Assembly: GCF_030013205.1 (NCBI RefSeq) | Contig: NZ_CP122648.1 | Source: Escherichia coli | GTDB taxonomy: Bacteria > Pseudomonadota > Gammaproteobacteria > Enterobacterales > Enterobacteriaceae | DNA length: 64,000 nucleotides | Strand: one strand, 5' to 3' | Part shown: positions 866-15,379 of the stretch, one piece after another | Layout: every line of letters begins with the position of its first letter | How positions within the stretch are numbered: the first letter of the stretch is position 1 | Program-made: the position numbers and the translations under genes | The notes under the pieces: generated by a model | Databases searched by the model: none | What the model was told of the DNA's origin: nothing | The model's input: the letters and a program-made list of their open reading frames with translations, nothing else

Positions 866-880
866 TTGCAGGAGCTGCCT

Positions 881-3361
881 ATGTTGAGAATGACCCCACT
901 TGCATCAGCAATCGTAGCGTTATTGCTCGGCATTGAAGCTTATGCAGCTGAAGAAACCTTTGATACCCATTTTATGATAGGTGGAATGAAAGACCAGCAG
1001 GTTGCAAATATTCGTCTTGATGATAATCAACCCTTGCCGGGGCAGTATGACATCGATATTTATGTCAATAAGCAATGGCGCGGGAAATATGAGATTATTG
1101 TTAAAGACAACCCGCAAGAAACATGTTTATCAAGGGAAATTATCAAGCGGTTAGGCGTTAATACCGATAACTTTGCCAGCGGTAAGCAATGTTTAACATT
1201 TGAGCAACTTGTTCAGGGTGGGAGCTATACCTGGGATATCGGAGTTTTTCGTCTCGATTTCAGTGTCCCGCAGGCGTGGGTGGAAGAACTGGAAAGTGGC
1301 TATGTTCCACCGGAAAACTGGGAACGGGGTATTAATGCGTTTTATACCTCTTATTATGTGAGTCAGTATTACAGCGACTATAAAGCGTCGGGTAATAGCA
1401 AGAGTACATATGTACGTTTTAACAGCGGGTTAAACTTACTGGGGTGGCAACTGCATTCTGATGCCAGTTTCAGTAAAACAAATAGCAATCCAGGGGTGTG
1501 GAAAAGCAATACCCTGTATCTGGAACGTGGATTTGCCCAACTTCTCGGCACGCTTCGCGTGGGTGATATGTACACATCAAGCGATATTTTTGATTCTGTT
1601 CGCTTCAGCGGTGTGCGGTTGTTTCGTGATATGCAGATGTTGCCTAACTCGAAACAAAATTTTACGCCACGGGTGCAGGGGATTGCTCAGAGTAACGCGC
1701 TGGTAACTATTGAACAGAATGGTTTTGTCGTTTATCAGAAAGAGGTTCCTCCTGGCCCGTTTGCGATTACAGATTTGCAGTTGGCCGGTGGTGGAGCAGA
1801 TCTTGATGTCAGCGTGAAAGAGGCGGACGGCTCGGTTACCACCTATCTGGTGCCTTATGCAGCAGTGCCGAATATGCTGCAACCCGGAGTGTCGAAATAT
1901 GATTTTGCGGCGGGTCGTAGCCATATTGAAGGGGCGAGCAAACAAAGTGATTTTGTCCAGGCGGGTTATCAGTATGGTTTTAATAACTTATTGACGCTGT
2001 ATGGCGGATCGATGGTCGCGAATAATTATTACGCGTTCACTTTGGGGACTAGCTGGAATACACGCATTGGTGCCATTTCCGTCGATGCCACGAAGTCGCA
2101 TAGTAAACAAGACAACGGCGATGTGTTTGACGGGCAAAGTTATCAAATTGCCTACAACAAATTTGTGAGCCAAACGTCGACGCGTTTTGGTCTGGCGGCC
2201 TGGCGTTATTCGTCGCGTGATTACCGGACATTTAACGATCACGTTTGGGCAAACAATAAAGATAATTATCGCCGTGATGAAAACGATATCTATGACATTG
2301 CCGATTATTACCAGAACGATTTTGGCCGTAAAAATAGCTTTTCTGCCAATATGAGCCAGTCATTGCCAGAAGGCTGGGGTTCTGTGTCCTTAAGTACGTT
2401 ATGGCGAGATTACTGGGGGCGTAGCGGCAGCAGTAAGGATTATCAGTTGAGTTATTCCAACAACCTGCGACGGATAAGCTATACCCTCGCGGCAAGCCAG
2501 GCTTATGACGAGAATCATCATGAAGAGAAACGTTTTAATATTTTTATATCGATTCCCTTTGATTGGGGTGATGACGTTACGACGCCTCGTCGGCAAATAT
2601 ATATGTCTAACTCAACGACGTTTGATGATCAGGGTTTTGCCTCAAATAATACGGGATTATCGGGAACCGTTGGAAACCGGGATCAATTTAACTATGGGGT
2701 CAACCTGAGTCATCAGCATCAGGGAAATGAAACAACAGCTGGAGCGAATTTAACCTGGAACGCGCCGGTGGCAACGGTGAATGGCAGTTATAGTCAGTCG
2801 AGTACTTATCGACAGGCTGGAGCCAGTGTTTCAGGGGGCATTGTCGCCTGGTCGGGTGGCGTTAATCTGGCGAACCGTCTTTCCGAAACGTTTGCAGTGA
2901 TGAATGCGCCAGGAATTAAAGATGCTTATGTCAATGGGCAAAAATATCGCACAACAAACCGTAATGGAGTGGTGGTATACGACGGAATGACACCTTATCG
3001 GGAAAATCACCTGATGCTGGATGTGTCGCAAAGCGATAGCGAAGCAGAATTGCGCGGTAACCGGAAAATTGCCGCACCTTATCGCGGCGCGGTTGTACTG
3101 GTTAATTTTGATACCGATCAGCGCAAGCCCTGGTTTATAAAAGCGTTAAGAACGGATGGGCAACCATTAACGTTTGGTTATGAAGTCAATGATATCCATG
3201 GTCATAATATTGGCGTTGTCGGCCAGGGAAGCCAGTTATTTATTCGCACCAATGAAGTTCCGCCATCGGTTAATGTAGCAATTGATAAGCAACAAGGACT
3301 TTCATGCACAATCACCTTCGGTAAAGAGATTGATGAAAGTAGAAATTATATTTGCCAGTAA
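881..3361 (+). CDS. yehB: Outer-membrane fimbrial usher (FimD/PapC family)
   Basis: ATG 881 is preceded by GGAG (871-874). The 826-aa product starts with signal peptide MLRMTPLASAIVALLLGIEAYA. The ORF-track start at 866 is an upstream TTG. Confidence 0.9.
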   Translation: MLRMTPLASAIVALLLGIEAYAAEETFDTHFMIGGMKDQQVANIRLDDNQPLPGQYDIDIYVNKQWRGKYEIIVKDNPQETCLSREIIKRLGVNTDNFASGKQCLTFEQLVQGGSYTWDIGVFRLDFSVPQAWVEELESGYVPPENWERGINAFYTSYYVSQYYSDYKASGNSKSTYVRFNSGLNLLGWQLHSDASFSKTNSNPGVWKSNTLYLERGFAQLLGTLRVGDMYTSSDIFDSVRFSGVRLFRDMQMLPNSKQNFTPRVQGIAQSNALVTIEQNGFVVYQKEVPPGPFAITDLQLAGGGADLDVSVKEADGSVTTYLVPYAAVPNMLQPGVSKYDFAAGRSHIEGASKQSDFVQAGYQYGFNNLLTLYGGSMVANNYYAFTLGTSWNTRIGAISVDATKSHSKQDNGDVFDGQSYQIAYNKFVSQTSTRFGLAAWRYSSRDYRTFNDHVWANNKDNYRRDENDIYDIADYYQNDFGRKNSFSANMSQSLPEGWGSVSLSTLWRDYWGRSGSSKDYQLSYSNNLRRISYTLAASQAYDENHHEEKRFNIFISIPFDWGDDVTTPRRQIYMSNSTTFDDQGFASNNTGLSGTVGNRDQFNYGVNLSHQHQGNETTAGANLTWNAPVATVNGSYSQSSTYRQAGASVSGGIVAWSGGVNLANRLSETFAVMNAPGIKDAYVNGQKYRTTNRNGVVVYDGMTPYRENHLMLDVSQSDSEAELRGNRKIAAPYRGAVVLVNFDTDQRKPWFIKALRTDGQPLTFGYEVNDIHGHNIGVVGQGSQLFIRTNEVPPSVNVAIDKQQGLSCTITFGKEIDESRNYICQ

Positions 3362-3376
3362 TAGTCAGGTGGTCCT

Positions 3377-4411
3377 ATGAAAATTCGCATAATGCTATTT
3401 ATATTAATGATGATGGTTATGCCTGTGAGCTATGCGGCATGTTATAGTGAGTTATCTGTTCAGCACAATTTGGTTGTTCAGGGGGATTTTGCACTTAGTC
3501 AAACACAAATAGCGACATATGAGCATAATTTTAATTATTCGTCATGCGTGAGTACAAATACTATCACCCCTATGAGCCCGTCGGATATTATTGTTGGACT
3601 TTATAACGATACCATTAAATTAAATTTACATTTTGAATGGACCAATAAAAACAACATCACGCTGTCAAATAATCAGACCAGTTTCACCAGTGGTTATTCG
3701 GTAACGGTGACACCTGCGGCCAGTAATGCAAAAGTGAATGTTTCTGCGGGGGGCGGCGGTTCAGTAATGATTAATGGTGTTGCAACATTATCCAGTGCTT
3801 CATCATCGACACGCGGGAGTGCCGCAGTACAATTTCTACTGTGTTTATTAGGTGGCAAGTCATGGGATGCATGTGTAAATAGCTACAGAAATGCATTGGC
3901 ACAAAATGCAGGTGTCTATTCCTTTAATCTGACCTTGTCATACAACCCGATAACCACAACCTGCAAACCGGACGATTTATTAATTACTTTAGAGAGTATT
4001 CCCGTTTCACAATTACCAGCCACAGGTAACAAAGCAACAATAAATAGTAAAAAAGGGGATGTTATTCTGCGTTGTAAAAATTTATTAGGTCAACAAAATC
4101 AAACATCACGAAAAATGCAGGTGTATTTATCAAGTTCTGACTTGTTAACCAACAGCAACACAATACTGAAAGGTGCGGAAGATAATGGCGTAGGATTTAT
4201 TCTTGAAAGTAATAGTTCGCCAGTCACACTTTTAAATATCACTAACAGCAGTAAAGGATACACAAATTTAAAAGAAATTGCGACAAAGTCAAAACTTACA
4301 GATACAACGGTTTCAATTCCGATAACTGCCAGTTACTACGTCTACGATACAAACAAAGTTAAATCTGGCGCACTGGAGGCAACCGCATTAATCAACGTGA
4401 AATACGACTAA
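3377..4411 (+). CDS. yehA: Fimbrial tip/adhesin-like protein
   Basis: 344-aa ORF with a signal peptide ending VSYA. It is Ser/Thr/Asn-rich and is the last gene of the chaperone-usher operon. Confidence 0.75.
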   Translation: MKIRIMLFILMMMVMPVSYAACYSELSVQHNLVVQGDFALSQTQIATYEHNFNYSSCVSTNTITPMSPSDIIVGLYNDTIKLNLHFEWTNKNNITLSNNQTSFTSGYSVTVTPAASNAKVNVSAGGGGSVMINGVATLSSASSSTRGSAAVQFLLCLLGGKSWDACVNSYRNALAQNAGVYSFNLTLSYNPITTTCKPDDLLITLESIPVSQLPATGNKATINSKKGDVILRCKNLLGQQNQTSRKMQVYLSSSDLLTNSNTILKGAEDNGVGFILESNSSPVTLLNITNSSKGYTNLKEIATKSKLTDTTVSIPITASYYVYDTNKVKSGALEATALINVKYD

Positions 4412-4467
4412 TAACAAGCAAGACGAGCAAGTGGCTAATAATAAAAAATAACAAGGTGTCTGCATTT

Positions 4468-4494
4468 CCCCCTCATGATGAGGGGGCTTTTTTT
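4468..4494. terminator. Hairpin between convergent yehA and rcnB (terminator)
   Basis: CCCCCTCAT (4468-4476) pairs with ATGAGGGGG (4478-4486), followed by CTTTTTTT. The rcnB stop codon overlaps the T-run. Confidence 0.6.
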
Positions 4495-4831
4495 AGCGAT
4501 GATAAAAAATCTCACCGTCGTAGGCTTTAATGATTTTACCGTCGGTGTCGCTGATCAACACGTACGCGCCACCCATATAGGTCCAGTGCGTCCCGGCATC
4601 AGGCGCGGGCAGGTTACGTAACTGCCACTGCTTAATGTTGTACTCATCGGTGCGGTACATCTCTGGGACGGTATCGCCTGGTTTGAAATGCTTAAAGTCA
4701 GCAATGAAACTGCTTAACTCATACTTAGAAATTCCCGAGGTATTGGTCGAACCCGCGGTGGCTGGTGCGGCCCAGGCGGCACTGGTAACCAGCAAAAGCG
4801 CACCCAGCAACATCTTATTTTTAATGGTCAT
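4493..4831 (-). CDS. rcnB: Periplasmic nickel/cobalt homeostasis protein
   Basis: 112 aa from ATG 4831 (MTIKNKMLLGALLLVTSAAWA signal peptide), downstream of rcnA. The 172-aa track ORF carries a non-native N-terminal extension. Confidence 0.85.
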   Translation of the reverse strand: MTIKNKMLLGALLLVTSAAWAAPATAGSTNTSGISKYELSSFIADFKHFKPGDTVPEMYRTDEYNIKQWQLRNLPAPDAGTHWTYMGGAYVLISDTDGKIIKAYDGEIFYHR

Positions 4832-5049
4832 AAACTCTCCACTTTGGGGATCTGTAATATCAGTCGCATATCTTTCCTGCCATACAATATAACTGACAAG
4901 CGATATTTTGTTAGTGATCCCATGATTTCGTAAAAAGTGTAAATGAAAGGATGCCCTAAAAGCATCCTTAGCGAGCAGAGAGTCAGCGGAAATAGCTGAT
5001 TTAAGAATCATCCTGGGCTGAAGATAACATGCAAGCCTAAAGGATGGAG

Positions 5050-5874
5050 TTATCGCATTATGCCCATGAAGCCATGTACGCCCATATACACACCAACTAA
5101 GCCAATCAACAGACTGGAAAAATAGGGGGCGCGTTTAGCGAGAGTGTTAAATCCGCTCCAGCGTTTTGCGACCTGCTGAACGCTGATTGCTGCGCCAACG
5201 CCTACGGTGACAAGCGTTAACGCCAGGCCAATGCTGAAACTGACGACCAGTGTTGCGCCCAGTGTCAGGGCTTTCAACTGAATGCATATCAACAGCACGG
5301 TAATTGCTGCCGGGCAGGGGATAAGGCCACCGGTTAAGCCAAATAGCAAAATTTGCCAGTTGGTGACCTCTCTACCATCAAAGCGTCGTTTAATGTCATT
5401 GGCATGGGCTCGTGCATGGGCATCCTGATACTCGCCATGTTCGTGATGGTGATGATGTCCATGGTCGTGGTGATCTTCGTGATCGTGGTGATGATGCTCA
5501 TGATCATGCTCGTGCATATTCTCCAGCCAGTTGCGTTCGCCGCGCCAGGTACGCCAGAACATCCAGAACGCGGTGCCAATAATGATCACTGCGGAAATCA
5601 ACTGGAGCCACGGTTCTGCTGATTGAGCAGTAAAGCGCTTGCTGATCACCATCCCGCCAAAGGCAATCAACCAGACCACTGCGGTATGCGAAATGGTTGC
5701 TGCCAGTCCGAGCATCACCGCCTGTTTAATGGTGCCTTTGATGGCGATGATAAACGCCGCCATCATCGTTTTTGAGTGCCCTGGTTCCAGGCCATGAAGC
5801 GCACCAAGTAAGATGGCGCTGGGGATGAAGAACCAGGCGTTTCCTTGCTGAAGAAGAGTGGTAAATTCGGTCAT
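5050..5874 (-). CDS. rcnA: Nickel/cobalt efflux membrane protein
   Basis: 274-aa polytopic protein with a His/Asp/Glu-rich loop (HEHDHEHHHHDHEDHHDHGHHHHHEH), characteristic of RcnA. Confidence 0.95.
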   Translation of the reverse strand: MTEFTTLLQQGNAWFFIPSAILLGALHGLEPGHSKTMMAAFIIAIKGTIKQAVMLGLAATISHTAVVWLIAFGGMVISKRFTAQSAEPWLQLISAVIIIGTAFWMFWRTWRGERNWLENMHEHDHEHHHHDHEDHHDHGHHHHHEHGEYQDAHARAHANDIKRRFDGREVTNWQILLFGLTGGLIPCPAAITVLLICIQLKALTLGATLVVSFSIGLALTLVTVGVGAAISVQQVAKRWSGFNTLAKRAPYFSSLLIGLVGVYMGVHGFMGIMR

Positions 5875-5911
5875 GATAATAATTCTTAGTATTAATTCGG
5901 CAATCTTATTC

Positions 5912-5946
5912 TACTCCCCCCCAGTACCTGATACTACCCCCCAGTA
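5912..5946. promoter_or_regulatory. Two RcnR operator sites in the rcnA-rcnR divergent region
   Basis: TACTCCCCCCCAGTA (5912-5926) and TACTACCCCCCAGTA (5932-5946). These fit the described RcnR operator type TACT-G6-N-AGTA, read on the other strand. Confidence 0.7.
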
Positions 5947-5994
5947 GATTAATAGTGCTATGATTTTTCATATTCTTGTTAACCAGGTGTTGCC

Positions 5995-6267
5995 ATGTCT
6001 CATACCATCCGTGATAAACAGAAACTGAAAGCGCGTGCCAGTAAGATTCAGGGCCAGGTCGTGGCGCTCAAGAAAATGCTCGACGAGCCGCACGAATGCG
6101 CTGCAGTTTTACAACAGATTGCTGCTATCCGTGGCGCGGTAAACGGTCTGATGCGGGAAGTGATTAAAGGTCATCTGACGGAACACATCGTTCACCAGGG
6201 GGATGAGCTAAAACGTGAAGAAGATCTGGATGTCGTTCTGAAGGTGCTGGATTCTTATATCAAATAA
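5995..6267 (+). CDS. rcnR: Ni/Co-responsive transcriptional repressor (CsoR/RcnR family)
   Basis: 90-aa ORF ([29 protein letters not shown]...) divergent from rcnA. Confidence 0.95.
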
Positions 6268-6304
6268 TTTATTAACGCGATTGTAAAACTGCGGTTTTTA
6301 CTCG

Positions 6305-6333
6305 TTTACAACGCGTGCGCTGGACATTACCAT
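6305..6333 (+). promoter_or_regulatory. Candidate sigma70 promoter, possibly the displaced native thiM promoter
   Basis: TTTACA (6305-6310), a 17-bp spacer, then TACCAT (6328-6333), about 30 bp upstream of the left TPP-aptamer copy. Confidence 0.35.
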
Positions 6334-6360
6334 CCTCCTCTGCGATTTATCATCGCAATC

Positions 6361-6437
6361 AAACGACTCGGGGTGCCCTTCTGCGTGAAGGCTGAGAAAT
6401 ACCCGTATCACCTGATCTGGATAATGCCAGCGTAGGG
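6361..6437 (+). repeat. Left copy of the 77-bp direct repeat: TPP riboswitch aptamer fragment (putative attL)
   Basis: Identical over 77 bp to 15251-15327. The sequence AAACGACTCGGGGTGCCCTTCTGCGTGAAGGCTGAGAAATACCCGTATCACCTGATCTGGATAATGCCAGCGTAGGG is the thiM THI-box aptamer. Confidence 0.9.
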
Positions 6438-6520
6438 GGCCAAAATAGTCTTGAAAATTATGTGGTTGTATCTCTTTTTGACCATAAATCATGCTGTTAA
6501 GGTACAAAAAGGGGTCGTTT

Positions 6521-7828
6521 ATGAGGTCAAGAACTCTCCCATACACATTTCAGCGAAACGGTAATTACTATCTACAAATCCGGCTTTCGGATGGTCGGAT
6601 ATACAAAAAATCACTTTTTACTGACAGTTATCGCGAAGCATCGGCGTTGATGATTGGCCTTACTCCGCACATTCCTTTCGTTAAATCACTCGCTACTCCG
6701 TTGCCGCAATTTAATAAGTTTGTTTCAAACTTGATCGCTTCGTCACGTAACGTAATGATTCCGTTGCCACTCCCTCAGCAATTGAACAATATTTCTAAAG
6801 AAGTTTTGCAGCTTCAACCACCAGCCAAACCGGAAAAGGTGCTAACACTTGCTGATGCGTGGGCTATGTACAAGGAGGAAAGAGGTCGAAATTGGACAAA
6901 ATCGATCTCAATGGCAAATGAGCGTTATATGGAGGTATTGCTTGTTGTCTTGGGAAAAGAAACAGACGTAACGGCAATCACCAAACAAGATATTAAGCGA
7001 GTAATGGAAACTGTCGAAAACTTACCAAAGCGTGTAGTGCAACCGTATAGGTCAATGACTATTCAGCAACTAATCGAATGTGATGATGTGCTGCCAGAGG
7101 ATTTAGTTGGTGCTGAGGCTGTACATAAGCACCTTAAAATCTACAAATCGTTATTCAAAACATTTCTGACTGAAAACAAAGATATTCTATCTAAGTCTCC
7201 GACTGATGGAATAGTAGCGGCACCATCCAAAGCTAGGTTTGGTGCATACAGTGCAGCAGAAATGAAAAAATTTGTAGGATGGGCACTAAAGCAGCCTGAT
7301 GGATGGCAGAAGTGGATCACTTTGTTGTTGGCGTACACAGGAGCCAGAAGAGGTGAGATTGCTAAACTGGAGAAGTCGCAGATCAAATTTGATGAAGATA
7401 GCCAGCGGCACTATCTTCTGATCGCGGAAAGAAGGCTGGGTAAAACTGAGAATGCTACAAGACAGGTAGTGATTCATCCCAAACTGATTGAGTGGGGGTT
7501 TCTGGATTTTGTTAACCGCCAATGGAAAGAGAAAATCTTTTCGGAAGTCTCAGGTCGAAATATGTCAAAGATAGGTAAAGTTCTTTCAGATGTTCGTGAT
7601 CAGCTTGATATTCCTTATCTTGATGATTATGGGCAGCGGCGCTTGGTGCATAGTTTCCGGCATACTATGATTTCTACTTGTTTAGCTGGTTGGGTGAGTA
7701 ATTTGGCGCATCTGCAACAGGTGGTAGGTCATGAGAAAAGCGGTTTAGGGATTACCAGACGCTATTTGCACTCTTTTCCTTTACGTTCAATTTGTTACGT
7801 GATTGATGGTTTGGACTGGTTAAATTGA
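6521..7828 (+). CDS. Tyrosine recombinase / phage-type integrase
   Basis: ATG 6521 with SD AAGGGG (6509-6514). C-terminal catalytic residues are visible: ARRGE (Arg), HSFRH (His-x-x-Arg), GHEK (His), RRYLH (Tyr). The track start at 6491 adds 10 aa. Confidence 0.9.
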   Translation: MRSRTLPYTFQRNGNYYLQIRLSDGRIYKKSLFTDSYREASALMIGLTPHIPFVKSLATPLPQFNKFVSNLIASSRNVMIPLPLPQQLNNISKEVLQLQPPAKPEKVLTLADAWAMYKEERGRNWTKSISMANERYMEVLLVVLGKETDVTAITKQDIKRVMETVENLPKRVVQPYRSMTIQQLIECDDVLPEDLVGAEAVHKHLKIYKSLFKTFLTENKDILSKSPTDGIVAAPSKARFGAYSAAEMKKFVGWALKQPDGWQKWITLLLAYTGARRGEIAKLEKSQIKFDEDSQRHYLLIAERRLGKTENATRQVVIHPKLIEWGFLDFVNRQWKEKIFSEVSGRNMSKIGKVLSDVRDQLDIPYLDDYGQRRLVHSFRHTMISTCLAGWVSNLAHLQQVVGHEKSGLGITRRYLHSFPLRSICYVIDGLDWLN

Positions 7829-7927
7829 TGTGAGCCTCGTGAGAAAGGGAATAAATAGAGAAAATCAAGTTGTTACCTCATTGGCAGGGGATATAATGAC
7901 CATATTGTCATCTTGAGGAACAAAAGT

Positions 7928-9499
7928 ATGGTTGCTCGTTCTAACCTTGTAAATTTAGATGCACTGATTAAGCGTGCTGATTTAGGTTTAAAGATCCAAG
8001 ATAACTCTTCATTTGAAACGCTAAACAGTATTCCTGCAAGAGAATTGAAATCAGGAAGTGGAATTGCTGCGCTTCTGAGAAAACCAGATTTCCAGCGTGA
8101 AACAAATCATTGGGGGCCTGAGCAGGTTGTATCGCTTCTCGAATGCTACATCAATGGTGATTTGATACCTTCCGTTATTCTTTGGCGGTCTTCAACCCAT
8201 CTTTTTGTGATCGATGGTGGTCATCGTTTAAGTGCGTTACGTGCTTGGGTTGAAGATGATTATGGCGACGGTCATATATCCCATCAACTTTTTGGGCATG
8301 ATATTCCTCGTGAACAACGCCGCGCTGCAGATAGAACGAGAAAGCTTGTGAAGGAGAGGGTCGGTAGCTGGGAATATTATCAGAAGTTGCTTGCCGATGA
8401 TGCTTCATTGACCGAGGAACAGCAGAGAAGAATCAGCGTATTAACATCTCGTGGAATCTCAGTCCAATGGGTAGTGGGTGATGTAGATAAGGCAGAAACT
8501 TCATTTTTTAACATCAATATGAAGGGAACTCCTCTTGATGCTATCGAAGAGATGCTTCTAAAAAATCGCAAGAAAAGTATTCCGATAGCAACCCGAGCAA
8601 TTATTCGTGCCGGTAGAGGTCATCGCTATTGGTCGGGGTTTGATCAGAGCATTGCCCAGCAACTTGAAGATAAATCTGCAAAGCTGCATCGTTTGCTGTT
8701 CGAACCTGAAGTTGATCGCCCTATTAAAACTCTTGATCTTCCATTAGGCGGTTCTAGGGGGGTCAGGACAGCGATCCAAGTTTTGAAAGATTTCTTACTG
8801 ATCACTGATTGCAACCAGAATGGTGTTTTGAAAAAAATCGAAGCCTACCCTGATGATGCGTCGGGTGCTGATACGTTAAGAATCCTTTCCAAAGCCACAT
8901 CATTAAGCAATAGAATTACAGGCAATGGCGATGGTAGCTTGGGGCTTCATCCAGCGATTTATTTTTATGGTCCGACTGGAATCCACTCAACGCCAATGTT
9001 TCTAGGAACTGTGCTACTGGTGGCAAAACAACTCTCTAACAATAATGGTCAATTCTTTAAAGACTTCACAACAATCAGATCTAGGCTTGAGAGAATAATG
9101 ATCGAATTTAAGGACTTGATCGCAATGATAGTACAAAAACCAGGTAGTAATGTCCGAGTGGCTCGCTACTGTGATTTTTTAAATGCGGTGATCAAATCAC
9201 TCAAGCAGGGAGAGAATATTGATGAGAGTAAGCTTATCGAGCTGGCCGAATTGGAGGGGAGAATACTCTCTGGAGATTTTAAGAGAACATCAGCAAAAAT
9301 CAGCGATGAACAAAAAAGTAAGGTGTTCATTGACGTGGCTCTGCGCAACGCTTTGAAATGTCCGATTTGCCAAGGTTACCTTGATACTGAAAAGTCAGTT
9401 TCTTATGATCATATCGTACGTGTCCGTGAGGGAGGAGATGGTAATTCTGACAATGTACAGTTGACACACCCTTACTGTAACCAGTCAGTGAAGTGTTAA
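7928..9499 (+). CDS. DUF262/ParB-like (DGQHR-type) N-terminal domain fused to a C-terminal zinc-ribbon HNH nuclease; candidate defence nuclease
   Basis: ATG 7928 with SD GAGGA. Motifs: KPDFQRE, VIDGGHRLSALRAW, FFNINMKGTPL. C-terminal sequence: CPICQGYLDTEKSVSYDHIVRVREGGDGNSDNVQLTHPYCN. The track start at 7913 is a TTG. Confidence 0.8.
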   Translation: MVARSNLVNLDALIKRADLGLKIQDNSSFETLNSIPARELKSGSGIAALLRKPDFQRETNHWGPEQVVSLLECYINGDLIPSVILWRSSTHLFVIDGGHRLSALRAWVEDDYGDGHISHQLFGHDIPREQRRAADRTRKLVKERVGSWEYYQKLLADDASLTEEQQRRISVLTSRGISVQWVVGDVDKAETSFFNINMKGTPLDAIEEMLLKNRKKSIPIATRAIIRAGRGHRYWSGFDQSIAQQLEDKSAKLHRLLFEPEVDRPIKTLDLPLGGSRGVRTAIQVLKDFLLITDCNQNGVLKKIEAYPDDASGADTLRILSKATSLSNRITGNGDGSLGLHPAIYFYGPTGIHSTPMFLGTVLLVAKQLSNNNGQFFKDFTTIRSRLERIMIEFKDLIAMIVQKPGSNVRVARYCDFLNAVIKSLKQGENIDESKLIELAELEGRILSGDFKRTSAKISDEQKSKVFIDVALRNALKCPICQGYLDTEKSVSYDHIVRVREGGDGNSDNVQLTHPYCNQSVKC

Positions 9500-9567
9500 A
9501 ATCACGTTTCACTTTTCGTTGTCATTTGTATCGAACGTTTTTGAGAAAGGGCAGGATTGCGAGCGAG

Positions 9568-9720
9568 TTACCAGCGTAAACAGATAAATACTGTTTTCGT
9601 AAGCCCACTGTCGCCGCTTTCCGCTCTGCAATTTTTGCTTGTCGGGGGGCTAATTGTGGCTTTGCTTGCCATAACATTAAAAGTCAGTAATATACTGAAA
9701 ATTAATACAATACTTTTCAT
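9568..9720 (-). CDS. Possible 50-aa exported peptide (below the ORF-track cutoff)
   Basis: Hand translation of the minus strand gives MKSIVLIFSILLTFNVMASKATISPPTSKNCRAESGDSGLTKTVFICLRW*. The N-terminus is signal-like and the SD is weak (GGGA). Confidence 0.35.
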   Translation of the reverse strand: MKSIVLIFSILLTFNVMASKATISPPTSKNCRAESGDSGLTKTVFICLRW

Positions 9721-9863
9721 ATATCCCATTGAATATTCAGTTCATTGCCAAATAGCAAGCGGAGCACTCTCTCTTTAACGTTGTAGTAACTTAGTTGAAC
9801 AATTTTATAATATAATTTGTCTAAGTTGGTTGATGTATCAAAGCCTTTTTCTGAAGAATGAAT

Positions 9864-9883
9864 TGGCGTGATTACTCACGCCA
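9864..9883 (-). terminator. Hairpin 5 nt after the stop of the 9888-10235 gene
   Basis: TGGCGTGA (9864-9871) pairs with TCACGCCA (9876-9883), loop TTAC. The downstream tract on the minus strand is only moderately U-rich. Confidence 0.4.
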
Positions 9884-9887
9884 GATT

Positions 9888-10235
9888 TTAAATTTCAGAA
9901 CATAGGCTAAGCGTATAGACAGCAGTTTGCCCATCATTGTTAGTCGGTCTCATAACGAAAACAGGCTGACTCCCATTATCAATGTATGTGACTGCAACCC
10001 CTCCATCAGGTGTGGCATACATTTTTGCGATGCTTTTTTGACCTATAAAATCAAGTCTCCAAGTCTTACCACCAAGATGTATTGTCATTTTTTTATCTTG
10101 TATATCAAAAGTTGAATCTACAGAAACTTTCTGACTTCCCGAGTCAATATGACCTTCCTGTATTGCTTTACAGGAAAAGGTTGTGGCGTGGCCCATCACT
10201 GGAATTAACAAAGCGGCAAATACTAGTTTTTTCAT
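9888..10235 (-). CDS. Small exported (periplasmic) protein of unknown function
   Basis: ATG 10235 preceded by GGGAGA. Sec signal peptide MKKLVFAALLIPVMGHA; the mature part looks beta-rich with one Cys near each end. The track ORF has a 19-aa upstream extension. Confidence 0.7.
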   Translation of the reverse strand: MKKLVFAALLIPVMGHATTFSCKAIQEGHIDSGSQKVSVDSTFDIQDKKMTIHLGGKTWRLDFIGQKSIAKMYATPDGGVAVTYIDNGSQPVFVMRPTNNDGQTAVYTLSLCSEI

Positions 10236-10345
10236 TTGTCTCCCTTGATGTGTCAAATGGATGGTGATGCTAATAATACATGATTGATTCAAAATGTCAC
10301 GATTAGTGCGTGGTTAATTGGTGCGTCAAATTGCATCTTTGTGCC

Positions 10346-10810
10346 ATGCGAAAGAATCTGAGATACCTTTTTGGACAACGAGTAAAAGAGTTCCGTATAG
10401 CTATTGGCTTAAGCCAAGAGGCCTTTGCAGATCGGTGTGGTTTTGCTCGTAGTTATATGAGTCGAATTGAGCGTGGTTGCTCTAATGCATCTCTTGATGC
10501 AATTGAGGTTCTGGCTGACGCTTTGCGTATTGAGCCTTGGCAGTTACTAGCTTCTGATTCAAGGAAAACTGATGATCAGGAGGTACTTGTTCCTTATGCT
10601 GCAGATGGGTCGTGTTTTCATCCAGGATTGGCAAGTACTCGCGATGGTTCGTTTAGAGTAGGGGAAAAATCAGCCCAGAAACGTTTCAGTTCGTTCAATG
10701 ACGCTCTCGAATACCTTCGTGGAATGGAAACCGCGAAGTGGCGTAGGCCTAATGCTAGTGGTAATTGGGGAATTGTATCTGCGGTTAAATGGGATCGACT
10801 GAATCAATAA
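10346..10810 (+). CDS. XRE/Cro-family HTH regulator with an uncharacterised C-terminal domain
   Basis: The sequence MRKNLRYLFGQRVKEFRIAIGLSQEAFADRCGFARSYMSRIERG is a classic XRE HTH. About 85 aa of C-terminal sequence are unassigned. Divergent from the 10235 gene. Confidence 0.8.
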   Translation: MRKNLRYLFGQRVKEFRIAIGLSQEAFADRCGFARSYMSRIERGCSNASLDAIEVLADALRIEPWQLLASDSRKTDDQEVLVPYAADGSCFHPGLASTRDGSFRVGEKSAQKRFSSFNDALEYLRGMETAKWRRPNASGNWGIVSAVKWDRLNQ

Positions 10811-10976
10811 GATATCAGTAATTTTCGGGCCACTCCACAAGGCAATAAGTGGCTTAGTGGTGATTATCGAAGGGGAATACAAGCGAGCACCTAGGCACCA
10901 TTGCAAGAACCGCTCAACGCTGAGATCAGCAAGCCCCGATTTCTGCCGACCGTCCCTGTCAAATATCAAGGAGGCA

Positions 10977-11516
10977 TTACGCCTCCTCTTCTTCCTTCTT
11001 AATTCGCTGTACCGTCGAAGGAGCAACATTAAAGATCTCGGCGGTTTTACGCACTGACACGCCATCAGAAAGGGCTTTCTTTATACCTTCTCGATCCACT
11101 GCCTTACCTTTACCACGCTTTCTAGGATTGACGGCTTGCGCTTCTCGTTTACGTTCTAACATCAGTTCACGTTCACACGTTGCCACTGCCGACAACATAG
11201 TAAGCATCATTTTTCCCATCGCGCTTGTAATGTCTGCAATGATCCCTTCTTTGTGAAAGCGAACAATTACACCACGATTATTAAGTTGTTCCACTAAGGC
11301 AAGAATGTCTAAGGTGTTACGCCCTAAACGATCAAGAGAGTGGACGTGTAAGGTGTCGCCTTCTCTCAGATAGGCTAAACACGCTTGTAAGCCTGGGCGG
11401 TTAGTGTCTTTACCAGACAGCTTATCTTCAAAGACTTTGTCGAGAGTTAGTCCTGCAAGCTGGCGATCAGTATTTTGATCTACAGTGCTCACACGCTTAT
11501 AGCCGATATTGCTCAT
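10977..11516 (-). CDS. Serine recombinase (resolvase/invertase family)
   Basis: MSNIGYKRVSTVDQNTDRQ carries the catalytic Ser motif, and there is a C-terminal HTH (VRKTAEIFNVAPSTVQRI). 179 aa from ATG 11516. Confidence 0.9.
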   Translation of the reverse strand: MSNIGYKRVSTVDQNTDRQLAGLTLDKVFEDKLSGKDTNRPGLQACLAYLREGDTLHVHSLDRLGRNTLDILALVEQLNNRGVIVRFHKEGIIADITSAMGKMMLTMLSAVATCERELMLERKREAQAVNPRKRGKGKAVDREGIKKALSDGVSVRKTAEIFNVAPSTVQRIKKEEEEA

Positions 11517-11529
11517 AAAATCCCCTTGA

Positions 11530-11654
11530 TGTATCGATTTGGCACCACTCCAATGCAAATGAGTGTGTTGTATTCATTTGGTCTGTTTCAAGCCTTATGG
11601 ATACGGAATATTACACGATTTAGCTGTATTCATTTGGTATGCCTAATGGATACG
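11530..11654. promoter_or_regulatory. Putative res site (2-3 imperfect inverted-repeat subsites) upstream of the resolvase gene
   Basis: TGTATTCAT (11569-11577) with ATGGATACG (11597-11605), and TGTATTCAT (11625-11633) with ATGGATACG (11646-11654), at different spacings. A weaker third half-site TGTATCGAT lies at 11530-11538. Confidence 0.45.
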
Positions 11655-12165
11655 CAGGGGGATAGATTAAATGGTGTTCTGTTTATACAGGTTTATTTGT
11701 TAGATCAACAAGTTGGCATTTCTAAACAGATGTTTGAACGTTGCCAAATGCCTTGACAACACAAGAAAATGGCTTGCTATGAACGCATTACACGAAATAA
11801 GGCTATAAAAACAAAATAAATTTTAAAATTTGCACAAAAACGAGAAAACTCGTTCGACAAATAATAGATTGGTTTTTAATCGACAATTTCTGACAATTTC
11901 TGATGGTGCTCTGTAAACCGCATTACACAAGGCTTTGCGAAAGTGATGTAAAAGTGAAGAAAGTTAACATTGCACTTTGAAGCCATTTTTCATTGGATTT
12001 TTTAGTAGGGAATTACACAGGGAATAGAGAGCATTATTCTATGATTTACACAGGGAATATAGGGGATTATGGCACACACATAGAAAGGCATTACACAGAG
12101 TGAGTGCTATGTGATGATTGGTAGTAACGGTAGGTCACTGTGAGCTACCCCCCACAGAATTCTGT

Positions 12166-12286
12166 TACCCCTATCAAGTCTAACAGGGGTTTATAAAGAA
12201 TAATAAACCGATGATACCCCTATCAATATTGATACCCCTATTAGCTTTGATATGACTACCCCTATCAAAACTGATACCCGATAAGA
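12166..12286 (+). repeat. Array of five direct repeats (TGA)TACCCCTATCAA followed by an AT-rich stretch (ori-like iterons plus DUE)
   Basis: TACCCCTATCAA at 12166, 12215 and 12257. Variants TACCCCTATTAG at 12233 and TACCCGATAAGA at 12275. An AT-rich run follows at about 12281-12340. Confidence 0.7.
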
Positions 12287-12440
12287 ATAAGTTAATAAGA
12301 ATAATTAAATAATATTCTTTATATCTATATATATGATCTTTTTGCCTTCCGGCGTTAGCTTCACTCTCTGGCAAGCAGCCTTACTCCGCTATCTTTGGGC
12401 TTCGTGGCTGGCCCGTTCCGCTCACACCGAAAGCAAAGCG

Positions 12441-12518
12441 TTACTCTTCTTCGTGTAACTATCGTTGGCGGTAACGCCACACGAAGAAATACTATTGCGC
12501 TGTGCGCAGTAAGAGTAA
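12441..12518. other. GC-richer segment with nested inverted repeats (three-way-junction-like fold; function unknown)
   Basis: TTACTCTT (12441-12448) pairs with AAGAGTAA (12511-12518). CTTCGTGT (12449-12456) pairs with ACACGAAG (12479-12486). TGCGC (12496-12500) pairs with GCGCA (12504-12508). Confidence 0.3.
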
Positions 12519-13364
12519 TCACCTAACCAATCACCTGATTGCTTACGTGTTAACTCTCTCTAACTCTTAATTACCCTCCTACATTTAATAACTCTATTAT
12601 TCTCTGTAGTTGTGTAATTACTCGAAGAGAGAGCGGCTAAAGCTCAATTACACTCTGCTTTCCTCGTGTAATTTCACTAAGCCTCAATACAATTTCACTT
12701 CCTACATTCTGTAGTCGTGTAATAGTTTTCGGTGGGGAAAAGCCAGAGGCGACACCGAAAGAAAATTCTGATCTTATTAATCTTATCTATCTTAGTTAAT
12801 CTTCTTACTTACTTTATCTACTTTATTATTAATAATAGCTTTATAAGCTCTCTGTGTAGCTCTCTGACGCAAGAAACAGCATTCAGGAAGGGAATCACCT
12901 TAGAAAAGTGTTCTTTGCGTCATAATGTGTTTTATGAAGGATTCAGAGGTGTTTCATAACACAAGGTATAGAGGATATTTTAGTTAATTAAAAATAAGGG
13001 GGCTAAATGCTTCTCTAACAGCATTAAGCAGGGTAGAGAATGGAAATGCATTGCCTACGTATATATAAACTCACTACAAGGCTTTACAGAGCGTTTTATA
13101 AAGTAACTAATCTAAGAACTCTCTGTTTTATATCTATCATCATCTTTCCATCATCTAACAAATACAAAATAAGCCCCTTAAATAAGCCTCTGGCGAGCTA
13201 AACAGCCATTACATAAGGGAATGTATTTCTTTTATCAAAACTTCGTTAGAACGCGTTTTAGAGCGTTTTATACAATAAGGAAGAATAGGACCGTCCGCAA
13301 GAGCACGAATTGCTAAGAAAGAATGTAAACGCATGAAAAATATCAGATTTTTTATGAAAATATA

Positions 13365-13393
13365 TTGACAAATGTTTCTTTATATGTAATAAT
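13365..13393 (+). promoter_or_regulatory. Near-consensus sigma70 promoter of the Rep-like module
   Basis: TTGACA (13365-13370), a 17-bp spacer ending in TGT (extended -10 type), then AATAAT (13388-13393). Confidence 0.6.
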
Positions 13394-13444
13394 AGGTATT
13401 AGAGAGACAGAAAAACATTCTTCTCTAAATAATCAAAATCAATG

Positions 13445-13483
13445 CACTTTGAAGCCGTCAGGCTTGCAAGGTGTTTTTCTTTT
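13445..13483 (+). terminator. Intrinsic-terminator-like hairpin in the leader between the promoter and the first ORF (attenuator or short sRNA 3' end)
   Basis: CACTTTGAAGCC (13445-13456) pairs with GGCTTGCAAGGTG (13461-13473) with two mismatches, followed by TTTTTCTTTT. SD AAGGAG and ATG 13504 follow. Confidence 0.5.
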
Positions 13484-13503
13484 AACTGAATAAGGAGTTT
13501 TTT

Positions 13504-13692: not shown

Positions 13693-13711
13693 AGAAGAGA
13701 AGGAGAAAACT

Positions 13712-13882: not shown

Positions 13883-13936
13883 TTTTTATCACCATAGTAG
13901 CGCCGTAGAGCGTGATTACATCAAGGAGCTTTTTTA

Positions 13937-14599
13937 ATGATTAAACATACAAAACCTTTCTTAGGAATAGATTATGACTTACTAGCAATCACTTCCCTAG
14001 TGATTAACGGCAAAACAAAAGAAGTAAAACTACATCATAAGATCATTTATTCTTATTTGTTAAGTTTATCTGGCACATATCAAAAGGTAACACCATCTTT
14101 GAAAGGTATTGGTGAGCGGTTAGGAGTAGGTACAGATCAGACGGTACGCCGTCATATCAAAGATCTTGTTTCTTTTGGATGGTTGAAGATTGAGGAAAGG
14201 GCAGGTAGCACAAATGCTTATATTGTCCTTCCTTATGAACAAGAAGCCCAGACACAACAAGAAGCTACCGTTAAAGCTGTTCAGGAACAGCTTCCCCCTA
14301 CGGAAGATAATAAAGAGTTTTCTTTTGATGTTCTTGATGATTGGGATGCGCCTTTACCTTGGGAAATGGAAGAAACGCCATCTGATGAAAAGGTAGCTAA
14401 TGATAATGAGGAGGATGTGTTAGAGAATTTTGCCTCTCTTATCATCCAGGAGAAACACACAAGAACAGGAGGGGCATCATTTATAGAATTTGCAACATCG
14501 TTAGCCTGTAAGCACAGGATAAAGCTACCAAATGGTATTGAGGCATATTTTGCTAAGAAACATCCCAAAGTATATGAAGACTTTGATATTCCATTTTAA
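13937..14599 (+). CDS. Winged-HTH protein with an acidic C-terminal region; putative replication initiator / DNA-binding protein
   Basis: SD AAGGAG precedes the ATG. wHTH-like segment LKGIGERLGVGTDQTVRRHIKDLVSFGWLKIEERAGSTNAYIV, then an acidic tail (DDWDAPLPWEMEETPSDEKVANDNEEDV). It lies next to the iteron region. The CDS call is solid; the function is inferred. Confidence 0.6.
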   Translation: MIKHTKPFLGIDYDLLAITSLVINGKTKEVKLHHKIIYSYLLSLSGTYQKVTPSLKGIGERLGVGTDQTVRRHIKDLVSFGWLKIEERAGSTNAYIVLPYEQEAQTQQEATVKAVQEQLPPTEDNKEFSFDVLDDWDAPLPWEMEETPSDEKVANDNEEDVLENFASLIIQEKHTRTGGASFIEFATSLACKHRIKLPNGIEAYFAKKHPKVYEDFDIPF

Positions 14600-14794: not shown

Positions 14795-15052
14795 TTATAA
14801 CTTCGTGGTGTCAAGTCCAGCAGTTTTGAGTCGCTCGGTAAGATTTCTCATTTTGCTGAACTCTGTACCAAAGCTGGCTTTAAGTCCTACACCTTCGCAA
14901 AACTCTTTTGCCGTGACGTTTTTCAGATGGTCAACATATTTGGTCATCTGGAGGTGCATTTCCATCGTTTGGCTATTTCGTGATGCGCTGCTAATGGCTT
15001 GCTTAATGTTCTCGTAGATCTGGGTTCTGTCATTGTTTATCCCACCTATCAA
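14795..15052 (-). CDS. Small hypothetical protein (85 aa from a TTG start; may start internally)
   Basis: Open frame at the right end of the island. The only full-length start is TTG; the first in-frame ATG gives 56 aa (MEMHLQMTKYVDHLKNVTAKEFCEGVGL...). Confidence 0.45.
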   Translation of the reverse strand: MIGGINNDRTQIYENIKQAISSASRNSQTMEMHLQMTKYVDHLKNVTAKEFCEGVGLKASFGTEFSKMRNLTERLKTAGLDTTKL

Positions 15053-15146: not shown

Positions 15147-15168
15147 ATGGGGTACAAAATGGGGTACA
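15147..15168 (+). repeat. Tandem ATGGGGTACA repeat near the right island end (candidate integrase arm-type sites)
   Basis: ATGGGGTACA at 15147-15156 and 15159-15168. A related GGTACAAAA occurs at 6501-6509 near the left end. Confidence 0.4.
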
Positions 15169-15250
15169 CAGAGAAGAAGCAATTAATGGAGGCGAGCTTG
15201 CATCTGCAAGCCACTTCCCCTAAGCTGGCACAAAATATAGAGATTCAACC

Positions 15251-15379
15251 AAACGACTCGGGGTGCCCTTCTGCGTGAAGGCTGAGAAATACCCGTATCA
15301 CCTGATCTGGATAATGCCAGCGTAGGGAAGTCACGGACCACCAGGTCATTGCTTCTTCACGTTATGGCAGGAGCAAACT
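15251..15379 (+). promoter_or_regulatory. thiM TPP (THI-box) riboswitch: aptamer plus expression platform (right repeat copy, putative attR)
   Basis: The aptamer sequence matches the well-studied E. coli thiM riboswitch. It continues into AAGTCACGGACCACCAGGTCATTGCTTCTTCACGTTATGGCAGGAGCAAACT and the thiM ATG at 15380. Confidence 0.9.

What the first reader, a model, noticed from the sequence alone, without database searches (positions are those of the whole stretch)
6268..6530. Orphan, P1-truncated TPP aptamer sits between a candidate thiamine-regulon promoter and the integrase start
The left repeat copy lies downstream of a plausible promoter (TTTACA-N17-TACCAT, 6305-6333). By the attL model this promoter would be the displaced native thiM promoter. 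The copy ends 83 bp upstream of the int ATG (6521).

The repeat stops at ...GCGTAGGG. The native 3' strand of helix P1 (AAGTC, present only at 15328 onward) is therefore replaced by GGCCAAAATAGTC.

So int may be transcribed through an aptamer that keeps P2-P5 but has a disrupted P1. It is either a dead relic or a co-opted sensor tying integrase expression to TPP status. I cannot tell which from the sequence.
Basis: inference. Interest (0 to 1): 0.55.

Follow-up and report, generated by a model that had tools for sequence, protein, structure and literature searches.

The report
Island attL inside thiM TPP riboswitch
The "orphan" TPP aptamer is the host's own thiM promoter and aptamer, cut off from thiM when an 8.9-kb integrase-borne defence island inserted into the riboswitch; the island supplies a replacement aptamer for thiM, and nothing suggests the left-over copy senses thiamine for the integrase.

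Summary
The window is the E. coli rcnR–thiMD region. An 82-nt direct repeat (78 nt exact) at 6356-6437 and 15246-15327 brackets an 8.8-kb island.

- **Left copy.** It is a TPP aptamer without the 3' strand of P1 (Rfam 61.9 bits, against 71.2 for the right copy).
- **Promoter.** It lies behind TTTACA-N17-TACCAT. Published thiM numbering shows this is the native thiM promoter (TSS = 6340).
- **Distance to int.** The copy ends 83 nt before the int ATG.

The attL reading is correct. The same integrase family sits in the same place in 17 loci from other Enterobacterales genera and in 202 of 5426 E. coli genomes.

In E. coli islands that carry a foreign aptamer allele, attL holds the native allele and attR the foreign one. 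So the element replaces the aptamer (and presumably the promoter) of thiMD, with crossover at the 3' end of the block.

The "co-opted sensor" idea finds no support:
- No lineage carries a P1 3' strand.
- No conserved pairing links the aptamer to the int ribosome-binding site.
- Three attL copies have decayed below the Rfam threshold.
- A conserved, aptamer-independent hairpin occludes the int SD and AUG.

The given finding is an ordinary attL by-product. The site itself, a riboswitch aptamer used as att site, I found undescribed.

The parts
6305..6333 (+). Native thiM promoter (-35 TTTACA 6305-6310, -10 TACCAT 6328-6333). The inferred TSS is 6340.
   Evidence: Consensus scan. The hexamers and spacer are identical in the K-12 empty site. 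Published numbering (RBS G142, AUG U152; PMC5499598) maps +1 to 6340.
6356..6437 (+). Left copy of the att identity block (attL). It holds the host's original thiM leader, the 5' strand of P1 and aptamer helices P2-P5. The P1 3' strand and the expression platform are missing.
   Evidence: Repeat D1. Rfam TPP 61.9 bits with P1 mismatches. Colinear with K-12. In E. coli L021/L022 this copy keeps the native allele while attR carries a foreign one.
6438..6520 (+). Element-derived arm between the crossover and int, which is also the int leader. In other lineages it starts with the palindrome GGCCGAAATTCGGCC; this is lost here. The long hairpin H2 begins in this arm at 6458 and runs on past it to 6524, inside int.
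   Evidence: Family alignment. RNAalifold consensus and pair counts.
6458..6524 (+). Conserved hairpin H2. The 5' strand (6458-6482, including CTCTTTTTGAC) pairs with the 3' strand (6502-6524), which contains the GGTACAAAAAGGG motif, the int SD (AAGGGG 6509-6514) and the AUG (6521-6523).
   Evidence: 23 pairs, 94.3% of cells paired across 13 sequences, with many G-U-compatible one-sided changes; slid controls give 44-62%. The structure was derived from the same alignment, so this support is moderate.
6521..7828 (+). Tyrosine integrase gene (435 aa) of the island.
   Evidence: Pfam PF00589 (29.4 bits, cut-off 27.1) and phrog_1 integrase, E 1.6e-26. Homologues of 74-82% identity are found next to a TPP aptamer copy in other genera.
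7913..9499 (+). Cargo gene: GmrSD-N / HNH endonuclease (type IV restriction-like).
   Evidence: Pfam PF03235 and PF01844. Hochhauser et al. list an rcnR-thiM island of 7,956 bp as RM_type_IV.
10977..11558 (-). Serine recombinase / DNA invertase. Relatives (37-49% identity) occur in seven of the other-genus loci.
   Evidence: Pfam PF00239 and phrog_125. tblastn across loci.
12010..12280 (.). Iteron-like short direct repeats in a non-coding stretch. This is a possible replication origin of the island.
   Evidence: Repeat families D2, D3 and D10. The function is inferred only.
13937..14599 (+). HTH_36 protein resembling phage replication initiators.
   Evidence: Pfam PF13730; phrog_270, phrog_428 and phrog_391.
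14795..15052 (-). RptR-family small repressor (Pfam HTH_73). A TAGCTA site lies at 15074-15079 in its upstream region.
   Evidence: PF24718, E 7.5e-27. PDB 9r2z, E 8e-29. RptR binds TAGCTA (PMC12255303). The site is read directly from the sequence.
15151..15168 (+). Two direct GGTACA repeats in the island's right arm (three in most other lineages). The same motif occurs at 6501-6513 next to int. They are candidate arm-type integrase sites.
   Evidence: Motif search: the only matches with 0-1 mismatch in 64 kb lie at the two island ends. They are conserved in the right-end alignment. The function is inferred.
15198..15226 (+). Candidate outward promoter of the island (TTGCAT-N17-TAAGCT), about 30 nt before the 5' strand of P1. 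It is inferred to drive thiMD in the integrated state and int in the excised circle.
   Evidence: TTG...TA...T is kept while other positions vary across lineages. The last island gene points away from thiM. O157:H7 and O55:H7 keep this end but lack the native promoter. It is not flagged by the consensus scan and there is no transcript data.
15246..15327 (+). Right copy of the identity block (attR). It is the element-borne leader and aptamer up to the crossover.
   Evidence: Repeat D1. Allele comparison in L021, L022, L007 and L009.
15249..15379 (+). Functional, chimeric thiM TPP riboswitch. The aptamer is element-borne. From 15328 onward, the P1 3' strand (AAGTC) and the SD/AUG-sequestering platform are native.
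   Evidence: Rfam 71.2 bits with P1 formed. Colinear with K-12 from 15328. Mechanism from PMC5499598.
15380..16965 (+). The thiM-thiD operon (thiM 15380-16168, thiD 16165-16965).
   Evidence: ORFs. RefSeq annotation of the identical strain K_EC180.

Best explanation
The left TPP aptamer is the attL junction of an ~8.9-kb integrase-led island with defence-type cargo. The island belongs to a family that integrates site-specifically into the aptamer of the thiM TPP riboswitch in Enterobacterales.

How integration works:
- The element's attP carries its own copy of the thiM leader and aptamer, from just before the 5' strand of P1 to ...GCGTAGGG.
- Recombination crosses over at the 3' end of that block.
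- At attR, the element's upstream region (with a candidate outward promoter) and its aptamer join the host's P1 3' strand, expression platform and thiMD. A complete riboswitch is rebuilt there.
- At attL, the host's own promoter and aptamer are fused to the element's int-proximal arm.

Consequences for the left copy:
- It exists because of this target-restoring geometry, not because it senses TPP.
- It probably forms the 5' part of a 181-nt int leader transcribed from the thiM promoter.
- It has no P1 and no platform, so it should bind TPP poorly and transmit nothing.
- Int translation is instead held down by a conserved hairpin that buries the int SD and AUG.

Shown: the anatomy, the empty site, the family-wide site specificity, the allele swap and the lack of P1.

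Inferred: the exact crossover position, the outward promoter, transcription from thiMp into int, and the role of the hairpin.
For: - **Boundaries.** Repeat and island boundaries are clear, and the K-12 empty site is colinear with both flanks.
- **Native promoter.** The thiM TSS maps to 6340 by published numbering.
- **Site specificity.** The integrase is a tyrosine recombinase. All 17 other-genus loci found with the integrase family hold a TPP aptamer copy. In the 15 with the int 5' end, it ends 82-87 nt before the int start.
- **Frequency.** 202 of 5426 E. coli genomes carry the integrase family, and 461 of 5426 carry the island right end fused to the thiM riboswitch.
- **Aptamer scores.** attR copies score 71-77 bits. 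attL copies score 57-63 bits, and three are below threshold.
- **Allele swap.** In E. coli L021 and L022, attL has the native allele and attR a foreign allele.
- **Crossover.** In all 13 loci with both copies, the two copies are identical for at least 13 nt next to ...GCGTAGG and differ further 5'.
- **No P1.** No P1 3' strand is present in any attL.
- **Hairpin.** H2 is conserved, with 94% of cells paired.
- **P1 dependence.** A P1-stem mutant of the related E. coli tbpA TPP riboswitch misfolds and fails to bind TPP (PMC8609307).
Against: - No transcript, excision or binding data exist for this locus.
- The left copy still passes the Rfam threshold. Its ligand-contacting arms (P2/P3, P4/P5) are intact, so weak TPP binding cannot be excluded.
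- In the window lineage only, the 5' strand of P1 (AACGACUC) can pair with the int SD region (GGGGUCGUU, -10.3 kcal/mol, 18 of 1000 shuffles as good).
- Also in the window lineage only, AGTC sits 9 nt after GGG.
- Forcing the aptamer lowers the predicted SD accessibility in this lineage from 0.33 to 0.04.
- The candidate outward promoter matches only 6 of 12 consensus positions and was not flagged by the scan.
- Hairpin H2 could instead reflect inverted protein-binding sites in the DNA.
Confidence: 0.85

Rival explanations
1. Co-opted sensor. The P1-less aptamer in the int leader still binds TPP and tunes Int synthesis, tying excision or integration to thiamine status. One possible route is a substitute P1 formed with downstream island sequence or with the int SD.
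For: - The aptamer arms are intact and score above the Rfam threshold.
- int always lies 82-87 nt behind an aptamer copy, at chromosomal attL and at island-to-island junctions alike.
- In the window lineage, the 5' strand of P1 can pair with the int SD (p about 0.018).
- In the window lineage, forcing the aptamer lowers predicted SD accessibility.
Against: - The pseudo-P1 pairing is absent in the other 15 lineages (p 0.17-0.97). One hit at p=0.018 among 16 tests is expected by chance about a quarter of the time.
- No lineage carries the 6-nt P1 3' strand, although adding it would be trivial.
- attL copies decay in L006, L016 and L020.
- Conservation of the aptamer in attP is fully explained by its role at thiM after integration.
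- The SD is occluded by H2 whether or not the aptamer is forced, in most lineages.
- P1 is needed for TPP sensing in a related switch.
Confidence: 0.07
2. The left copy matters to the host rather than to int. The displaced promoter and aptamer produce a stable decoy RNA (a TPP sponge or small RNA), or the promoter's main effect is constitutive read-through into island genes such as the GmrSD nuclease.
For: - A strong 5' hairpin (6341-6357) and structured aptamer arms are predicted.
- No terminator-like site lies between the promoter and int.
- int and the GmrSD gene are co-oriented.
Against: - There is no evidence of selection on the left copy: copies decay, and the O157:H7/O55:H7 remnant has lost it altogether.
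- A single-copy RNA is unlikely to buffer cellular TPP (my own inference).
- An untranslated 181-nt leader invites Rho termination. For thiM this was shown when translation is blocked (PMC5499598).
Confidence: 0.05
3. The duplication is not a site-specific att structure. It would be a chance or recombinational duplication of the riboswitch, with an unrelated insertion between the copies.
For: None beyond the bare existence of a repeat.
Against: The same integrase family lies at the same distance from the same aptamer position in 17 loci of other genera and four E. coli lineages, with varied cargo. The empty site is precise.
Confidence: 0.01

Closest known systems
Genomic islands and prophages in tRNA/tmRNA genes (Islander-type integration, PMC4383910)
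   Same: A tyrosine integrase sits next to one end. The target is a structured RNA gene. The element carries a copy of part of the target, so one end holds a regenerated functional gene and the other a displaced, non-functional fragment. Tandem arrays occur at the same site.
   Different: The target here is a cis-regulatory riboswitch aptamer, not a stand-alone RNA gene. The element restores the 5' part of the target and so presumably also supplies transcription, whereas tDNA islands restore the 3' part.
dusA-specific islands (Farrugia et al. 2015, PMC4482086)
   Same: They integrate in the 5' end of the target and replace that 5' end with element-borne sequence. Putative promoters are present before and after integration. 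SXT integration at the 5' end of prfC, recalled from my own memory and not checked here, would be a further case.
   Different: Those elements replace protein-coding 5' ends. Here a ligand-binding RNA domain is replaced, and the result is a chimeric riboswitch (foreign aptamer, native P1 3' strand and platform). The integrase showed no similarity to any PDB chain. Its relation to DusA-type integrases was not tested.
E. coli thiM TPP riboswitch (RF00059; Bastet et al. 2017, PMC5499598)
   Same: The left copy is literally the first 98 nt of the thiM mRNA: its promoter, leader, 5' strand of P1 and helices P2-P5.
   Different: It lacks the P1 3' strand, the anti-sequestering and sequestering stems, and the thiM RBS. 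It is followed by island sequence and int instead.
[quoted passage not shown] 2023, PMC10121019)
   Same: A small island with an integrase and defence cargo and no other recognisable mobility genes. Their supplementary table lists an 'rcnR-thiM' island of 7,956 bp with RM_type_IV and MGE type 'None'.
   Different: That survey places the island only between two flanking genes. The riboswitch att site, the aptamer duplication and the aptamer swap are not mentioned in the text or in the held supplements I searched.

Membership tests
TPP riboswitch (Rfam RF00059), left copy | Aptamer sequence and structure consensus (P2-P5, CUGAGA, ACCUGAUCUGGAUAAUGCCAGCG) | tested here: met
   61.9 bits against a gathering score of 54.3; E 6e-12 in the local search.
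TPP riboswitch (Rfam RF00059), left copy | P1 helix closing the three-way junction | tested here: not met
   Two of the five model P1 pairs are non-standard. The native AAGUC strand is present only at 15328. No attL in the family has it.
TPP riboswitch (Rfam RF00059), left copy | Expression platform that couples aptamer or P1 formation to an RBS or terminator | tested here: not met
   The native platform is at attR only. No conserved aptamer-to-SD pairing exists. Forcing the aptamer leaves int SD accessibility unchanged in most lineages, although the positive control on attR was weak.
TPP riboswitch (Rfam RF00059), left copy | Binds TPP and changes expression of the downstream gene | not testable with these tools
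   This needs in-line probing or ITC, and reporter fusions.
attL of a tyrosine-integrase integrative element with target restoration | Direct repeats bounding the element that equal the attB segment of an empty site | tested here: met
   82-nt repeat. The K-12 empty site is colinear across it.
attL of a tyrosine-integrase integrative element with target restoration | Tyrosine recombinase gene adjacent to one end, with the same site used by relatives | tested here: met
   PF00589 and phrog_1. All 17 other-genus loci hold a TPP aptamer copy beside the int match, and four E. coli lineages use the same aptamer position.
attL of a tyrosine-integrase integrative element with target restoration | Functional target regenerated at the other end from element-borne sequence | tested here: met
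   attR scores 71.2 bits with P1 formed and is followed by thiMD. A foreign aptamer allele sits at attR in L021 and L022.
attL of a tyrosine-integrase integrative element with target restoration | Excision to a circular attP form and reintegration | not testable with these tools
   Support is only indirect: near-identical islands occur in many E. coli backgrounds, and attP-like junctions occur in tandem arrays.
Phage satellites (PICI / P4-like) | Integrase plus satellite hallmark genes (AlpA/Stl-type regulators, primase-replicase, packaging or capsid-redirecting genes) | tested here: not met
   PHROGs and Pfam find only the integrase, an XRE regulator, an invertase, a Rep-like HTH_36 protein, RptR and GmrSD. 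No packaging or primase genes were found. Weak or novel hallmarks cannot be excluded.

The most novel reading that the evidence does not exclude
In the E. coli lineage of this window, the host 5' strand of P1 (AACGACUC, 6362-6369) pairs with the int Shine-Dalgarno region (GGGGUCGUU, 6511-6519). This would act as a long-range substitute P1. TPP binding to the orphan aptamer would then stabilise SD sequestration and lower integrase synthesis when thiamine is plentiful. If so, a mobile element would have built a new expression platform on a captured host aptamer.
Probability: 0.06. Interest if true: 0.8.

Novelty: new variant of a known kind. Interest (0 to 1): 0.4.

Why it matters
As posed (does an orphan aptamer regulate int?), the finding is most likely an ordinary attL by-product. 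The setting is less ordinary.

- **Unusual att site.** A widespread family of small defence-carrying islands uses a riboswitch aptamer as its attachment site. It replaces the host's aptamer (and apparently the promoter) of thiMD with its own.
- **Frequency.** About 8% of complete E. coli genomes (461 of 5426), including O157:H7 and O55:H7, carry the island's right end fused to the thiM riboswitch. In these genomes the aptamer upstream of thiMD is presumably element-delivered.
- **Natural experiment.** The carriers offer chimeric riboswitches (foreign aptamer, native platform) that could be studied directly.
- **Annotation.** The 'second TPP riboswitch' that PGAP annotates in the four carrier genomes I inspected is an att-site fragment, not a regulator.
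- **Literature.** I found no paper in the searchable library that describes this att site. One pan-genome survey lists the island only by its flanking genes.

Tried and rejected
1. **Pairing of the 5' strand of P1 (ACGACUC) with the int SD.** I noticed this early. It is real in the window (-10.3 kcal/mol, p about 0.018) but absent in 15 other lineages, so I treat it as chance or lineage-private.
2. **AGTC at 6447-6450 as a displaced P1 3' strand** (possibly extended by UCAA/UUGA). It occurs only in the window lineage. Other lineages have the GGCCGAAATTCGGCC palindrome there.
3. **Plain MFE folding of the attL and attR leaders.** This was uninformative (z -1.0 and -0.6).
4. **Constrained partition-function test of SD accessibility.** No consistent aptamer effect at attL. 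The attR positive control responded in only 3-4 of 9 loci, so the test is weak.
5. **Hairpin H1 (GGCCGAAATTCGGCC).** It has a few compensatory G-C to A-U changes but is not convincingly above controls, and it is lost in the window.
6. **HTH_73 as an excisionase.** Rejected. It is an RptR-family defence-island repressor.
7. **Phage or satellite identity.** There is no whole-island match in phage records, only a 430-bp patch in phage muut, and there are no satellite hallmarks.
8. **Consensus scan for an outward promoter at the right end.** It found nothing on the + strand. The TTGnnn-N17-TAAnCT candidate rests on conservation only.
9. **Literature searches** for thiM or a TPP riboswitch as an att site found nothing. 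Only a supplementary-table entry 'rcnR-thiM' turned up.
10. **The antisense ORF 6298-6546** (82 aa, GTG start) overlaps the aptamer and was not pursued; I regard it as spurious.
Full report
**1. What is in the window**

The region is the E. coli rcnR–thiMD locus. It is identical to strain K_EC180.
- rcnR ends at 6267 and thiM starts at 15380.
- Between them lies low-GC DNA (0.33-0.48, against 0.53-0.57 in thiMD).
- That DNA is bounded by an 82-nt direct repeat at 6356-6437 and 15246-15327. It has one mismatch (T6359 against C), and 78 nt are exact.

Rfam calls both copies TPP aptamers.
- The right copy (15249-15345) scores 71.2 bits.
- The left copy (6359-6454) scores 61.9 bits, with two of the five P1 pairs non-standard.
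- The gathering score is 54.3.

- TTTACA-N17-TACCAT is at 6305-6333.
- 83 nt separate the repeat from the int ATG at 6521.
- The left copy continues GGCCAAAATAGTC where the right copy continues AAGTC.

**2. It is attL, and the promoter is the native thiM promoter**

The K-12 empty site aligns with the left flank through ...GCGTAGGG and with the right flank from AAGTC onward. There is nothing in between.

Bastet et al. 2017 number the thiM RBS as G142 and the AUG as U152 (PMC5499598).
- Counting back across the empty-site sequence puts +1 at window 6340, 7 nt after TACCAT.
- A transcript from it would carry the int AUG at +182.
- No terminator-like site lies between the promoter and int.

**3. 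The element**

The island runs from 6438 to 15245 and encodes the following:
- a tyrosine integrase (6521-7828);
- a GmrSD/HNH nuclease;
- an XRE regulator;
- a serine invertase;
- a Rep-like HTH_36 protein, downstream of iteron-like repeats;
- a homologue of the defence-island repressor RptR (PDB 9r2z, E 8e-29; PMC12255303), with a TAGCTA site upstream.

No phage or satellite hallmark genes were found.

**4. A family that targets the riboswitch**

Integrases of 74-82% identity occur in many other genera, including Buttiauxella, Lelliottia, Enterobacter, Leclercia, Atlantibacter, Erwinia and Pantoea.
- In every locus that retains the int 5' end, int is preceded by a TPP aptamer copy ending ...GCGTAGG(G) 82-87 nt before the start codon (84 in nearly all).
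- A second, complete copy abuts thiM 5-11 kb away where the sequence reaches that far.

In E. coli:
- 202 of 5426 complete genomes carry the integrase family. Of these, 125 belong to the window lineage.
- 461 of 5426 have the island's right end fused to the thiM riboswitch.
- That number includes O157:H7 and O55:H7. Their ~2-kb remnant retains the right end but has lost int, the left copy and the native thiM promoter.

Cargo varies between members: GmrSD, a C5-methylase with an HATPase/Ymh protein, AIPR, TIR, and helicases.

Tandem arrays occur. In several loci the aptamer copy before int is preceded by another island's right end, which gives an attP-like junction.

**5. Which copy is whose**

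In E. coli MB06233 (L021) and ETEC1734 (L022):
- The left copy has the native E. coli allele.
- The copy at thiM has a foreign, Enterobacter-like allele. It differs in the leader, the P3 loop and J2-4.
- In Enterobacter (L007, L009) the thiM copy carries a compensatory P3 variant that is absent from the left copy.

In all 13 loci with both copies, the two are identical for at least 13 nt next to ...GCGTAGG and differ only further 5'.

So the element carries its own leader and aptamer, and the crossover is at the 3' end of the block.
- The working thiM riboswitch of carriers is a chimera: element aptamer plus host P1 3' strand and platform.
- The left copy is the host's original aptamer.
- This is the mirror image of tDNA islands and resembles dusA islands, which replace the 5' end of their target (PMC4482086).

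The last island gene points away from thiM, and O157:H7 lacks the native promoter. The island's right end must therefore supply transcription.
- A conserved TTGnnn-N17-TAAnCT (15198-15226) is the candidate.
- It is weak by consensus and has not been tested.

**6. Does the left copy sense TPP for int?**

The evidence is against it.

(a) None of the 19 attL-type junctions examined has a P1 3' strand.
- Most continue with the palindrome GGCCGAAATTCGGCC.
- In the related E. coli tbpA switch, a P1-stem mutant misfolds and does not bind TPP, and the competing anti-P1 stem governs sensing (PMC8609307).

(b) attR copies score 71-77 bits in every locus.
- attL copies score 57-63 bits.
- Three attL copies have decayed below threshold: L006, L016, and L020 at 40.6 bits.

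(c) The conserved feature of the int leader is a long hairpin (6458-6524).
- It pairs a CUCUUUUUG stretch with the SD, and UNAUG with the start codon.
- 94% of cells are paired, with many wobble-compatible changes.
- It is independent of the aptamer.

(d) A duplex test between the 5' strand of P1 and the int-proximal arm stands out only in the window lineage.
- There it gives -10.3 kcal/mol, with the partner being the int SD; 18 of 1000 shuffles do as well.
- The other 15 lineages give p = 0.17-0.97.
- One such hit among 16 tests is unremarkable.

(e) Forcing the aptamer arms does not change predicted SD accessibility in most lineages.
- The window (0.33 to 0.04) and L017 are exceptions.
- The attR control is weak, so this test is inconclusive.

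Conservation of the aptamer inside attP is fully explained by its job at thiM after integration.

**7. Likely working of the left junction (inferred)**

- The thiM promoter transcribes the orphan aptamer and the int leader.
- The hairpin blocks int translation.
- The long untranslated leader may then expose the transcript to Rho. This was shown for thiM itself when translation is blocked (PMC5499598).
- The result would be low, thiamine-independent Int levels in the integrated state.
- In the excised circle, the same leader would be read from the island's own outward promoter.

**8. Novelty**

The duplicated target fragment at attL is textbook. The target, a riboswitch aptamer, and the resulting aptamer swap are not described in any paper I could search.
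- Hochhauser et al. 2023 list an 'rcnR-thiM' island (7,956 bp, RM_type_IV, MGE type 'None') in a supplementary table, without comment on the site.
- PGAP annotates both copies as 'TPP riboswitch'.

I rate the posed finding as ordinary and the context as a new variant of a known kind.

Noticed in passing
L002 (E. coli O157:H7 FRIK2455) 731-3082; also O55:H7 CB9615: These strains carry a ~2.3-kb remnant of a thiM-riboswitch island: an RptR homologue, a hypothetical gene and an outer-membrane protein gene. It has no integrase, no left aptamer copy and no native thiM promoter. thiMD must therefore be expressed from island-derived DNA in this whole lineage.
   Followed up: partly
window 13877-14305: A 430-bp stretch of the island (the end of a small ORF and the start of the Rep-like HTH_36 gene) is 94.7% identical to hypothetical genes of the 146-kb lytic Escherichia phage muut. 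This could reflect gene exchange or a helper relationship.
   Followed up: no
window 12010-12280: Several families of short direct repeats (28-nt, 18-nt and 23-nt units) lie in a ~1.7-kb non-coding stretch upstream of small ORFs and the Rep-like gene. They look like iterons of a replication origin, which would suggest that the island replicates after excision.
   Followed up: no
window 15053-15110: The RptR homologue (14795-15052, minus strand) has the published RptR operator TAGCTA (15074-15079) in its upstream region. In this island, however, no defence operon follows it on that strand.
   Followed up: partly
L009, L011, L016, L020 (aptamer-proximal ~150 nt): A second type of sequence precedes some aptamer copies. 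It has GGACACAAGCTGGCACACAG repeats and the palindromes CTGGCATGATCCAG and GATTAACGGGACGTTAATC. It is either a divergent island right end or a conserved native thiM upstream region of the Enterobacter/Kosakonia group. I did not resolve which.
   Followed up: partly
window 44612-45417 (minus strand): Three tandem Sib antitoxin RNAs are present (140-150 bits each).
   Followed up: no
window 31178-31263 (minus strand) and 60454-60492 (plus strand): There is a CyaR sRNA gene (100.7 bits) and a JUMPstart element (57.3 bits). Both are ordinary chromosomal features unrelated to the finding.
   Followed up: no
window 6359: The only difference between the two repeat copies is T6359 in the left copy. 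K-12, three other E. coli attL copies and the right copy all have C there. It is either a strain polymorphism or a mutation after integration. Incidentally, it would extend a possible UCAA/UUGA pairing with 6451-6454.
   Followed up: partly
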